From: a virus
Taxonomy: Duplodnaviria; Caudoviricetes
DNA: 62,323 nt
Direction: 5' to 3' (one strand)
IMG/VR virus record: IMGVR_UViG_3300042898_000840
Coordinates: 1 to 62,323 of that record
Made by a program: the position numbers and the translations under genes. Below are positions 18,333-18,435 of the stretch, piece after piece. Every line of letters begins with the position of its first letter. Position 1 is the stretch's first letter. The notes under the pieces are model-generated. The model was not told where the DNA came from and did no database searches. It worked only from the letters and a program-made list of their open reading frames with translations.

Positions 18333-18435
18333 TGGTAGTCAGGACAGGAATCGAACCTGCTATGGTTGGGGTTGTAACTACTTTTGAGTACCCTTCCTTA
18401 TTTATTCTTAGCGTCTACCATTCCGCCACCTGACT
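18333..18435 (-). ncRNA. tRNA-like RNA with Leu-type D/T arms and CCA end, but no canonical anticodon arm
   Basis: AGTCAGG/CCTGACT acceptor followed by A-CCA; D arm GCGGAATGGTAGACGC; T arm GCAGG-TTCGATT-CCTGT. The 50-nt middle has no 5-bp stem plus 7-nt loop at the expected position. Confidence 0.8.

What the first reader, a model, noticed from the sequence alone, without database searches (positions are those of the whole stretch)
18333..18435. CCA-ending Leu-like tRNA with a scrambled 50-nt anticodon region
The acceptor, D arm, T arm, A73 and CCA are intact. The middle has no canonical anticodon stem, although it contains CTCAAAA (a Leu-CAA loop sequence) in an off-register hairpin. Bacterial LeuRS largely ignores the anticodon, so the RNA might be charged yet not decode. 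Together with the 60-nt mimic, both tRNA-like genes of this phage have lost decoding function while keeping the top half.
Basis: partly seen in the sequence, partly recalled or inferred. Interest (0 to 1): 0.72.

Follow-up and report, generated by a model that had tools for sequence, protein, structure and literature searches.

The report
Anticodon-less leucine-tRNA-shaped phage RNA gene
This lake phage carries a small gene for an RNA that keeps the upper body of a leucine tRNA but has no codon-reading arm, and it belongs to a very large family of phage RNAs with near-identical ends, interchangeable middles and a job that is still unknown.

Summary
On the minus strand, 18435-18333 encodes a 100-nt tRNA-shaped RNA plus CCA, with an intact acceptor stem, a Leu-type D arm, a T arm and A73. 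The 50-nt middle contains no anticodon stem-loop.

It is not a decaying tRNA. The exact 25-nt 5' part occurs in at least 120 viral contigs. There the 3' 25 nt stay about 90% identical to the window, while the middles (20-113 nt) fall into 78 unrelated types. One subfamily of middles shows compensating base changes. An identical 100-nt copy sits in a mosaic relative whose neighbouring DNA is only 87% identical.

The T arm is 17/17 identical to tRNA-Leu(CAA) of candidate host Chitinophagaceae. No cellular genome carries the chassis as a tRNA.

The encoded CCA is a one-base variant of the family's usual C-A-A trailer. CTCAAAA matches the host Leu(CAA) anticodon loop, but chance is not excluded.

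Close relatives carry at this locus a 60-63-nt arm-less form, a 30-nt minihelix, 137-184-nt expanded forms or true tRNAs.

The closest known example is phage T5 RNA1, annotated as a "tRNA-like stable RNA with unknown functions".

My best reading is a tRNA-processed, plausibly leucylated, non-decoding mimic with an exchangeable middle; its function is not shown.

This scan has met the family before on other genomes.

The parts
18333..18435 (-). Whole tRNA-shaped RNA gene ('tl103'): 100 nt to the discriminator, plus an encoded CCA.
   Evidence: Rfam tRNA model, 33.9 bits, model positions 1-71. An identical 100-nt copy lies in metagenome contig L210 at positions 425-524.
18429..18435 (-). Acceptor stem, 5' strand. 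It pairs with 18337-18343 over 7 Watson-Crick pairs.
   Evidence: Sequence and fold. The same 7-mer heads 151 unique tRNA-like sequences in the loci held.
18411..18426 (-). Leu-type D arm (3-bp stem; loop with A14, A15 and G18G19).
   Evidence: It differs by one deleted base from the D arm of tRNA-Leu(CAA) in three Chitinophagaceae MAGs, and it aligns with the D arm of phage T5 RNA1.
18361..18410 (-). 50-nt middle: a 13-nt A/U-rich unpaired stretch, then a predicted 34-nt hairpin that ends 3 nt before the T stem, which is the variable-arm position. It has no anticodon stem-loop.
   Evidence: Constrained fold. No complement of RNA positions 27-31 occurs downstream in the middle (read from the sequence). 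It was unaligned by the Rfam model. Only an identical copy was found elsewhere, so the hairpin is a prediction without covariation support.
18382..18388 (-). CTCAAAA heptamer.
   Evidence: It equals the anticodon loop of the candidate host's tRNA-Leu(CAA). The local alignment score is reached by 3.65% of 2000 shuffles and by unrelated family middles.
18344..18360 (-). T arm.
   Evidence: 17 of 17 identical to the T arm of tRNA-Leu(CAA) in the MAGs G001, G002 and G003.
18333..18343 (-). Acceptor 3' strand (18343-18337), discriminator A73 (18336) and CCA (18335-18333).
   Evidence: Sequence. In the family the discriminator is A in 90, G in 9 and T in 2 of 101 unique other members. The next base is C in 99% of 106.
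18501..18560 (-). 60-nt tRNA-like RNA without an anticodon arm or a variable arm ('tl60'), in the same operon.
   Evidence: Rfam tRNA model, 42.9 bits. It is conserved in 6 relatives, with two compensating acceptor pairs in L006. The same scaffold carries a 77-nt insert in L063 and L075.
18566..18629 (-). Conserved 64-nt structured leader that opens the RNA island, directly after the stop codon of the 81-aa ORF.
   Evidence: Present in 11 related loci. The alignment fold shows one compensating pair.
18436..18500 (-). 65-nt spacer. Its last ~24 nt form a hairpin-type leader motif directly upstream of the RNA.
   Evidence: The same motif precedes 13 of 325 distinct chassis starts in unrelated contigs.
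18242..18270 (-). Intrinsic terminator that closes the RNA island: an 8-bp stem with one bulge, a 6-nt loop and a T5 run.
   Evidence: Relatives L001 and L004 keep the stem through paired changes (sequences). The consensus scanner missed it because of the bulge.

Best explanation
The gene encodes a real, non-decoding, tRNA-shaped RNA.

Expression (inferred from layout). It is transcribed on the minus strand as the last gene of a small RNA island. The order is a 64-nt leader, the 60-nt arm-less tRNA-like RNA, a spacer, this RNA, a trailer and an intrinsic terminator.

Processing (inferred). Its ends are those of a tRNA, so it is most likely cut out by RNase P at the 5' end and by RNase Z or exonucleases at the 3' end. 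The CCA-adding enzyme then completes or repairs the CCA.

Shape (read from the sequence). It folds into the tRNA 'top half': an acceptor/T-arm stack plus the D-loop/T-loop elbow. The D and T arms copy those of a Bacteroidota (Chitinophagaceae-type) tRNA-Leu(CAA). In place of the anticodon arm it has a 13-nt A/U-rich linker and a hairpin in the variable-arm position, so it cannot read a codon.

Charging (inferred, not shown). Bacterial LeuRS needs A73 and the elbow, not the anticodon arm or the variable arm, so the RNA is plausibly leucylated.

Family (shown). It is one member of a very large phage family in which this chassis is nearly invariant and the middle is a swappable module.

Function (my commitment, inferred). 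The chassis gives tRNA-type processing, stability and access to host tRNA-handling proteins. The middle supplies a phage-specific binding or tuning function during host takeover or counter-defence.
For: 1. tRNA-model match with all arms except the anticodon arm. ARAGORN reports none.

2. Family scale and conserved ends:
- Of 130 anchors, 120 have a T arm and acceptor 3' strand downstream.
- That gives 102 unique full sequences and 95 unique middles, in 78 clusters at 70% identity or more.
- The unselected 3' 25 nt average 90.4% identity to the window, minimum 76%.

3. A sample anchored on the 3' end only gives the same picture:
- 173 unique chassis sequences, median length 105 nt, range 54-322.
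- 127 have a Leu-type D arm.
- ARAGORN makes a call for only 36 of 173, scattered over 26 different 'anticodons'.

4. Core positions flanking the middle are kept: position 26 is T or A in 100 of 102, and the base before the T stem is T in 91 of 102.

5. Middles are under selection. In subfamily L120/L183/L184 the only variable stem positions are two pairs with compensating changes.

6. The window's RNA is 100/100 identical in contig L210, where the adjacent homologous 138 nt are 87% identical and the other flanks differ.

7. Host likeness. The T arm is 17/17 identical and the D arm differs by one deleted base from Chitinophagaceae tRNA-Leu(CAA). Those host genes end ACAAA or ACAAT, like the family's trailer.

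8. The chassis is not a cellular tRNA. The 25-mer occurs in only 8 contigs among the species-representative genomes searched. All 8 are MAG contigs, and all carry non-canonical middles.

9. Operon layout with a terminator.

10. Leucine identity rules come from passages read in PMC9976931 and PMC2377443.

11. Precedent. Phage T5 RNA1 is annotated 'tRNA-like stable RNA with unknown functions'. It has a Leu-type D arm, an expanded middle, a variable arm and a T arm.

12. Weak support. In four metatranscriptome runs, contigs cover the two chassis ends at summed depths up to 2152, against about 8 on the flanks. DNA carry-over in those libraries is not excluded.
Against: - No expression, processing or charging data exist for this RNA.
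- The window's middle has no diverged homologue, so its hairpin has no covariation support.
- The molecule's fold energy is unremarkable: z -1.13. Across family middles the median z is -0.76, and only 8% fall below -2.
- The window has A, not the family's usual U, directly before the T stem. The A15-U48 pair named as essential for E. coli leucylation (PMC9976931) is therefore uncertain here.
- The D loop is one base shorter than in the host tRNA-Leu.
- The discriminator is G or T in 11 of 101 family members, so leucylation cannot be universal in the family.
- The acceptor stem differs from the host tRNA-Leu and matches no tRNA in the three candidate host MAGs.
- Near relatives do without this RNA. 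They carry a 30-nt minihelix or only the 60-nt form at the locus, so it is dispensable in some backgrounds.
- No protein family accompanies the RNA in more than 14 of 120 loci, which leaves the partner unknown.
Confidence: 0.55

Rival explanations
1. Processing or stability element only. On this reading the tRNA-like top half serves as an RNase P/RNase Z cleavage signal or a protective 3' structure for the neighbouring transcripts (tRNA punctuation). The middle is then irrelevant spacer.
For: Close relatives replace the RNA with a bare 30-nt acceptor-type minihelix followed by A-C. L054 keeps that helix through two compensating pairs. The 60-63-nt forms have almost no middle. Middle fold energies are close to shuffles.
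Against: The D arm and elbow are conserved far beyond what a cleavage signal needs. Middles in one subfamily are conserved, with compensating changes. Single phages carry several copies with different middles; L085, for example, has six chassis 3' ends in 5 kb. The window's RNA sits just before a terminator, with no downstream message to release.
Confidence: 0.15
2. Decoy for antiphage toxins that attack the tRNA acceptor end or elbow, such as nucleotidyltransferase or pyrophosphokinase toxins. An abundant RNA that is useless for decoding would soak up the toxin and spare the real tRNAs.
For: The acceptor end is the part kept through every reduction, even in the minihelix. The acceptor-stem sequence is nearly invariant across unrelated phages. 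Toxins that read acceptor stems exist, as stated in the abstracts of PMC10435456 and bioRxiv 10.1101/2024.07.05.602228, seen only in the listing.
Against: The acceptor stem matches no tRNA of the three candidate host MAGs, which is odd for a decoy of a host tRNA. Nothing links the RNA to any defence system. A decoy would not need varied middles.
Confidence: 0.12
3. A decaying tRNA-Leu pseudogene whose anticodon arm was scrambled by mutation. This is the literal sense of the first reader's wording.
For: There is no anticodon stem. The CTCAAAA heptamer equals the host tRNA-Leu(CAA) anticodon loop. The base before the T stem departs from the family norm. Relatives carry true tRNAs at the same locus.
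Against: Damage is confined to one arm, while 50 of 50 scaffold positions stay tRNA-like. An identical copy sits in a mosaic relative whose flanks are 87% identical. More than a hundred family members show the same pattern of intact ends. The CTCAAAA match is within chance: 3.65% of shuffles reach it, and unrelated middles score equally.
Confidence: 0.08
4. An intron-bearing tRNA-Leu(CAA) that is spliced into a normal decoding tRNA.
For: The CTCAAAA heptamer is present, and the middle is about 15 nt longer than the anticodon arm plus variable arm of a type II tRNA.
Against: No 5-nt stretch after position 26 has a complement later in the middle, so no excision restores an anticodon stem (read from the sequence). 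Rfam finds no intron or ribozyme family at E up to 10 in 18200-18660, or at E up to 1 in seven related loci. Known bacterial tRNA introns are group I introns of a couple of hundred nt (recalled). The family's middles range from 20 to 113 nt and share no boundaries inside the middle.
Confidence: 0.02

Closest known systems
Phage T5 RNA1 (AY543070 30501-30644, misc_RNA 'tRNA-like stable RNA with unknown functions'); T5 RNA2 and RNA3 carry similar annotations
   Same: Both are phage-encoded. Both have a Leu-type D arm that aligns column for column with the window's (U8, A14, A15, G18G19, the GUAGAC stretch), a T arm and a paired acceptor end. In both, the anticodon region is replaced by non-anticodon structure, and the function is unknown.
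   Different: T5 RNA1 is 144 nt as annotated and keeps a long closing helix plus a separate variable arm. Its acceptor stem, T arm and middle share no sequence with the window's RNA. It lies in a large array of true tRNAs, whereas this phage has no decoding tRNA at all. Its stability as an RNA is known only from the record's annotation; I read no paper on it.
Phage T4 species 1 and species 2 stable RNAs (rnaC, rnaD; AF158101 70908-71171)
   Same: They are small stable phage RNAs of unknown function encoded beside tRNA genes. rnaC has a canonical T arm and paired ends.
   Different: I saw no Leu-type D arm and no sequence similarity. rnaD shows no clear tRNA-like arms in the fold.
Engineered minimal tRNA-Leu substrates of E. 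coli LeuRS (Larkin et al. 2002, cited through PMC9976931 and PMC2377443; the paper itself was not held)
   Same: They show the same anatomy: acceptor, D arm and T arm with A73, and no anticodon arm. They 'remain active' in aminoacylation according to the passage read in PMC9976931.
   Different: Those are laboratory constructs. Here the form is natural, carries an added hairpin, and its charging is untested.
tmRNA tRNA-like domain
   Same: It is a chargeable tRNA top half without an anticodon arm, with other RNA inserted between the two halves (recalled).
   Different: ARAGORN, which searches for tmRNA, finds none. The window's RNA has no tag reading frame, a full D arm and Leu-type rather than Ala-type features, and it is 100 nt rather than about 350 nt.
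Canonical tRNA-Lys(UUU) of related phages (L015, L017, L018, L051)
   Same: It sits at the same genomic position upstream of the primase. It has the same acceptor stem and an identical 23-nt stretch spanning the T arm and the acceptor 3' strand.
   Different: It is a normal 71-nt cloverleaf with a 7-nt anticodon loop, a different D arm and discriminator T.

Membership tests
Canonical decoding tRNA (Rfam RF00005 / ARAGORN cloverleaf) | A 7-bp acceptor stem, a discriminator, a D arm with G18G19 and a T arm with a TTCRA loop | tested here: met
   Rfam alignment over model positions 1-71 at 33.9 bits, against a gathering score of 29; fold.
Canonical decoding tRNA (Rfam RF00005 / ARAGORN cloverleaf) | A 5-bp anticodon stem closing a 7-nt loop with U33 and an anticodon | tested here: not met
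   ARAGORN finds 0 genes in the window. 36 nt stay unaligned in the Rfam match. Positions 27-31 have no complement later in the middle (sequence).
Bacterial tRNA-Leu as a LeuRS substrate | Discriminator A73 | tested here: met
   A at 18336. In the family it is A in 90 of 101 unique other members. The rule comes from PMC9976931.
Bacterial tRNA-Leu as a LeuRS substrate | Elbow contacts G18-U55 and G19-C56, plus U8-A14 | tested here: met
   U8, A14, GG in the D loop and TTC in the T loop are all present. These columns are invariant in the alignment with five host tRNA-Leu genes and T5 RNA1. The pairing itself is inferred.
Bacterial tRNA-Leu as a LeuRS substrate | Trans Levitt pair A15-U48 | tested here: inconclusive
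   A15 is present. The base directly before the T stem is A in the window, with a U one position earlier. The family has U there in 91 of 102.
Bacterial tRNA-Leu as a LeuRS substrate | Actual aminoacylation with leucine | not testable with these tools
   This needs an acid-urea northern blot or an in vitro LeuRS assay.
T5 RNA1-type phage 'tRNA-like stable RNAs' | Phage-encoded, with tRNA-type acceptor, D and T arms and a non-anticodon structure in place of the anticodon loop or arm | tested here: met
   for T5; for the window.
T5 RNA1-type phage 'tRNA-like stable RNAs' | Accumulates as a discrete stable RNA in infected cells | not testable with these tools
   Only assembled metatranscriptome contigs were on hand. 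They cover the chassis ends and cannot show RNA ends or levels.
tRNA interrupted by a group I intron | A match to an intron or ribozyme model, and exons that restore the anticodon stem | tested here: not met
   No such Rfam match at E up to 10. No restorable stem exists.
tmRNA | A tag-peptide reading frame between the tRNA-like halves | tested here: not met
   ARAGORN's tmRNA search finds none. The middle is only 50 nt.

The most novel reading that the evidence does not exclude
The near-invariant Leu-tRNA chassis is a phage 'adaptor platform'. On this reading it is processed, CCA-tailed and leucylated like a tRNA, and it carries a hypervariable cargo domain that phages swap among themselves. 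The chassis brings that cargo to the host's tRNA-handling machinery (LeuRS, EF-Tu, the ribosomal A site or acceptor-end-targeting defence toxins). The family would then be an RNA arsenal for host takeover or counter-defence, not a set of failed tRNAs. The natural series at this locus offers ready-made deletion mutants: true tRNA, 100-nt form, 60-63-nt arm-less form and 30-nt minihelix.
Probability: 0.2. Interest if true: 0.85.

Novelty: new variant of a known kind. Interest (0 to 1): 0.6.

Why it matters
Small stable 'tRNA-like' RNAs are annotated in the phage T5 and T4 genome records without a known function. This finding shows that the T5 RNA1 type is no oddity of one coliphage. It is one face of a family found in well over a hundred uncultured phages of very different genome sizes. 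The family shares a chassis that copies the host's tRNA-Leu elbow and carries a middle that changes from phage to phage.

This particular phage is a clean test case. Its genome is complete at 62 kb. It has no decoding tRNA at all and just two arm-less mimics in one terminator-bounded operon. Close relatives carry progressively reduced or expanded versions at the same site.

If the RNA is charged with leucine yet cannot decode, that points to a use of aminoacyl-tRNA mimicry by DNA phages that has not been described in the papers I could search.

Tried and rejected
- BLAST of 18200-18700 against the phage record collection found no match.
- Rfam found nothing but tRNA. There was no ribozyme, intron, GOLLD/ROOL-type or other family in the window region at E up to 10, nor in seven related loci at E up to 1.
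- Search for diverged copies of the window's own middle:
  - Two gapped patterns in viral contigs gave 0 hits.
  - One 20-mer in metagenome contigs gave 2 hits. One is an identical copy (L210) and one is a chance hit inside an ORF (L211).
  - No covariation test of the window's hairpin was therefore possible.
- Fold energy is not significant for the molecule or for family middles.
- CTCAAAA as a relic of the Leu(CAA) anticodon loop: 3.65% of 2000 shuffles reach the observed local alignment score, and several unrelated family middles score the same. The heptamer occurs 14 times in the genome, against 19 expected. A relic is not shown.
- Antisense target in the phage genome: the longest complement to the middle is 12 nt, while 200 shuffles give 10-15 nt.
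- Linked protein partner: ORFs of 120 family loci were clustered, and no cluster occurs in more than 14 loci.
- Host tRNA with the chassis acceptor stem: none in three candidate host MAGs outside their phage-like contigs. These MAGs may be incomplete.
- RNA evidence for this phage's own RNA: the four metatranscriptome runs laid gave no cover of 18362-18403. One RNA-library contig joins 18333 to 18499, which equals the genomic arrangement of relatives L003 and L008 that lack this RNA, so it is not splicing evidence.
- The consensus terminator scan found none. The terminator was identified by reading, folding and comparison instead.
- ARAGORN on isolated family members gives scattered, mutually inconsistent anticodon calls. 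I treat these as artefacts.
- Literature: seven full-text searches found no paper that describes this family. T5 and T4 papers of the 1970s-80s are probably outside the searchable library, and supplements were closed.

Full report
WHAT IS THERE

The window is a complete 62,323-bp virus record with direct terminal repeats. It is about 34% G+C. It carries a BT4734-type primase, helicase, nucleases and an SSB on the minus strand, and a 3031-aa polyvalent protein with an ADP-ribosyltransferase domain.

The finding lies on the minus strand. Read 5' to 3' from 18435 to 18333, the RNA has these parts:
- a 7-bp acceptor stem
- U8
- a 3-bp D stem, with a D loop holding A14, A15 and GG
- 50 nt of other sequence
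- a 5-bp T stem with loop TTCGATT
- the acceptor 3' strand
- A73
- CCA

Rfam's tRNA model matches it end to end at 33.9 bits (gathering score 29; E 1.9e-5 in the local search, 6.0e-7 per genome). It leaves 36 nt unaligned where the anticodon arm belongs. ARAGORN finds no tRNA in the whole genome.

A second tRNA-model match lies at 18560-18501 (42.9 bits). It is a 60-nt molecule with an acceptor stem, a D arm and a T arm, but neither an anticodon arm nor a variable arm. These two are the only tRNA-like genes of the phage, so it has no decoding tRNA.

THE MIDDLE

- No stretch after position 26 has a complement later in the middle, so no anticodon stem can form.
- With the scaffold constrained, the best fold leaves 13 A/U-rich nt unpaired. 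It then forms a 34-nt interrupted hairpin that ends 3 nt before the T stem, which is where a type II tRNA has its variable arm.
- CTCAAAA is at 18388-18382, inside that hairpin and out of register for a 7-nt loop.
- Fold energy is not distinctive: z -1.13.

GENOMIC SETTING

Alignment by eye of the locus in 15 relatives, shows a small RNA island in this order:
- the stop codon of an 81-aa ORF at 18630
- a conserved 64-nt structured leader (18629-18566; present in 11 related loci; one compensating pair)
- the 60-nt RNA
- a 65-nt spacer
- this RNA
- a conserved trailer
- an intrinsic terminator (18270-18242), which relatives keep through paired changes
- the next ORF, starting at 18221

That layout is the sign of a transcribed RNA operon. 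It is not proof of transcription.

THE LOCUS IN RELATIVES

The primase gene gave 80 related viral loci at 53-98% protein identity. At the syntenic spot they carry very different things:
- a canonical tRNA-Lys(UUU) with the same acceptor stem and an identical 23-nt T-arm/acceptor stretch (L015, L017, L018, L051)
- canonical tRNA-Tyr(GTA) or tRNA-Arg(TCT)
- a 63-nt arm-less form (L011)
- 85-92-nt forms (L062, L073, L056)
- 163-184-nt forms with a closing helix, a large insert, a variable arm and, in L001 and L010 (as in the separate 122-nt RNAs of L012 and L013, which have a different acceptor stem), an extra hairpin inside the D loop
- in seven loci, only a 30-nt minihelix made of the acceptor stem and a loop, followed by A-C; L054 keeps this helix through two compensating pairs

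ARAGORN finds a tRNA in 12 of the 40 loci I gave it. The 60-nt RNA is kept in six relatives. Its variation lies in the linker and in two compensating acceptor pairs. In L063 and L075 the same scaffold holds a 77-nt insert.

THE FAMILY

The exact 25-nt 5' part of the RNA occurs in at least 120 viral contigs.

Sample anchored on the 5' part:
- Of 130 anchors in all loci held, 120 are followed by a T arm and a matching acceptor strand.
- 119 of these are complete and at most 170 nt long.
- They give 102 unique sequences with 95 unique middles.
- The middles fall into 78 clusters at 70% identity or more.
- The 3' 25 nt, which the search did not select for, average 90.4% identity to the window.

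Sample anchored only on the family's 3' 24-mer:
- It gives 173 unique chassis sequences, median length 105 nt.
- 127 have Leu-type D arms.
- ARAGORN makes a call for only 36 of them, spread over 26 'anticodons'.

Core positions next to the middle are kept: W26 in 100 of 102 and U before the T stem in 91 of 102. After the discriminator comes C in 99% of 106, then mostly A-A. CCA is found only in the window (1 of 119), where it differs by one base from the relatives' C-A-A.

The middles are not junk. In subfamily L120/L183/L184 nearly all middle positions are identical, and the two variable stem pairs change on both sides. The same middle also sits in two different chassis, L073 and L056.

The window's own RNA is 100/100 identical in metagenome contig L210. 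L210 is a mosaic relative whose adjacent homologous 138 nt are 87% identical and whose other flanks differ. There the RNA is followed by C-A-A.

WHERE THE CHASSIS COMES FROM

Among the species-representative bacterial and archaeal genomes, the 25-mer occurs in 8 contigs. All are MAG contigs with mixed taxon labels, and three are labelled Chitinophagaceae or Sediminibacterium. All 8 carry non-canonical middles. It is therefore not a cellular tRNA gene.

The chromosomal tRNA-Leu(CAA) of those three Bacteroidota MAGs compares as follows:
- a T arm identical to the window's (17/17)
- a D arm one base longer
- a 3' trailer ACAAA
- the anticodon loop CTCAAAA
- a different acceptor stem

No tRNA in those MAGs has the chassis acceptor stem. 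I infer a Chitinophagaceae-like host and a chassis that copies the host tRNA-Leu elbow. The shared CTCAAAA is suggestive, but 3.65% of shuffles and several unrelated middles match as well.

HOW IT LIKELY WORKS

Shown:
- It cannot decode.
- It has everything a tRNA needs for RNase P, RNase Z and the CCA-adding enzyme to recognise it.
- It keeps A73, U8/A14, G18G19 and the T loop.

From the literature:
- Passages read in PMC9976931: in E. coli, A73, the A15-U48 pair, G18G19 and A20a define leucine identity. [quoted passage not shown]
- Abstract and passages of PMC2377443: in Aquifex the anticodon arm is dispensable for aminoacylation but is needed for editing.

Inferred:
- The RNA is processed like a tRNA and may be leucylated.
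- The window's A in place of U before the T stem, and its shortened D loop, are reasons for caution.

I found no linked protein and no antisense target. What it does next is therefore unknown. I commit to a non-decoding mimic whose chassis engages host tRNA-handling proteins and whose middle is an exchangeable functional module.

The rivals are given with their odds in the Rival explanations section: a processing signal only, a decoy for acceptor-end toxins, a pseudogene and a spliced tRNA.

RNA LIBRARIES

In four metatranscriptome runs, contigs cover the two chassis ends at summed depths of up to 2152, against about 8 on the flanks. They join the two ends across other middles. This fits wide expression of the family, but these are assembled contigs, DNA can be present in such libraries, and they say nothing about this phage's own RNA.

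KNOWN RELATIVES AND EARLIER NOTES

Phage T5's record annotates RNA1 (144 nt) as 'tRNA-like stable RNA with unknown functions'. Its D arm aligns with the window's and with the host tRNA-Leu genes, and its anticodon region is expanded. T4's rnaC and rnaD are a looser parallel. Seven literature searches found no description of the family.

Earlier notes of this scan describe the same family on other genomes. I took the T5 and T4 leads from them and checked both here.

New in this report:
- the match to host tRNA-Leu(CAA)
- the reduction series down to a minihelix at one locus
- the identical copy in a mosaic relative
- the finding that CCA and CTCAAAA are not family features

VERDICT

The 'decay' reading is replaced by membership in a large chassis-plus-module RNA family. 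The function remains open.

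Noticed in passing
window 18566-18629 (-): A 64-nt structured leader opens the RNA island. It is present in 11 related loci whatever RNA follows it (the 60-nt RNA, the 184-nt RNA or the minihelix), and it shows one compensating pair. No Rfam family matches it.
   Followed up: partly
window 18436-18459 (-): A hairpin-type leader motif (stem, GGAAAGA loop, stem, then A-rich bases ending in AT) lies directly upstream of the RNA. The same motif precedes 13 of 325 distinct chassis starts in unrelated contigs, with stem covariation visible by eye.
   Followed up: partly
window 18907-18937 (-): An inverted-repeat motif (6-bp arms, 18-nt spacer, then a T run) occurs once in the genome, against 0 expected. 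In relatives it sits directly before the RNA island. In L210, L091 and L124 it ends 3-4 nt before the first base of a chassis RNA. It is a candidate promoter or protein-binding site.
   Followed up: partly
L002 1293-1324, L004 4367-4398, L007 4387-4418, L009 3370-3401, L014 3789-3820, L054 4398-4429, L057 4401-4432: In place of the window's RNA these loci carry a 30-nt minihelix: the chassis acceptor stem extended to 10 bp around a 10-nt loop, followed by A-C or G-C. L054 keeps the helix through two compensating pairs.
   Followed up: partly
L063 3657-3784; also L007, L075, L001 and L010: A conserved multi-hairpin element of about 130 nt lies between the two tRNA-like RNAs in some relatives, with stem covariation between L063 and L010 visible by eye. 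It is absent from the window and has no Rfam match.
   Followed up: no
L001 3005-3188, L010 1940-2123, L012 7680-7801, L013 8905-9026: Chassis RNAs with an extra hairpin inserted inside the D loop, between A15 and G18. The hairpin stem differs between loci in a paired way.
   Followed up: no
L085 (62-kb viral contig), 284-3380: Six copies of the chassis 3' end lie within about 3 kb of one phage. Single phages can therefore carry arrays of these RNAs with different middles.
   Followed up: no
L073 3260-3349 and L056 3926-4017: The same 33-nt middle sits in two chassis that have different acceptor stems and T arms. The middle therefore travels or persists independently of the chassis.
   Followed up: no
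window 24-9119 (+): A 3031-aa ORF with an ART-PolyVal ADP-ribosyltransferase domain at residues 1604-1757. It is a polyvalent protein of the kind delivered with phage or conjugative DNA.
   Followed up: no
window 18333/18499 joint in run X19: One contig from an RNA library joins 18333 to 18499 with one extra base. This reproduces the genomic arrangement of relatives L003 and L008, which have the 60-nt RNA fused to the downstream flank and lack the 100-nt RNA.
   Followed up: partly
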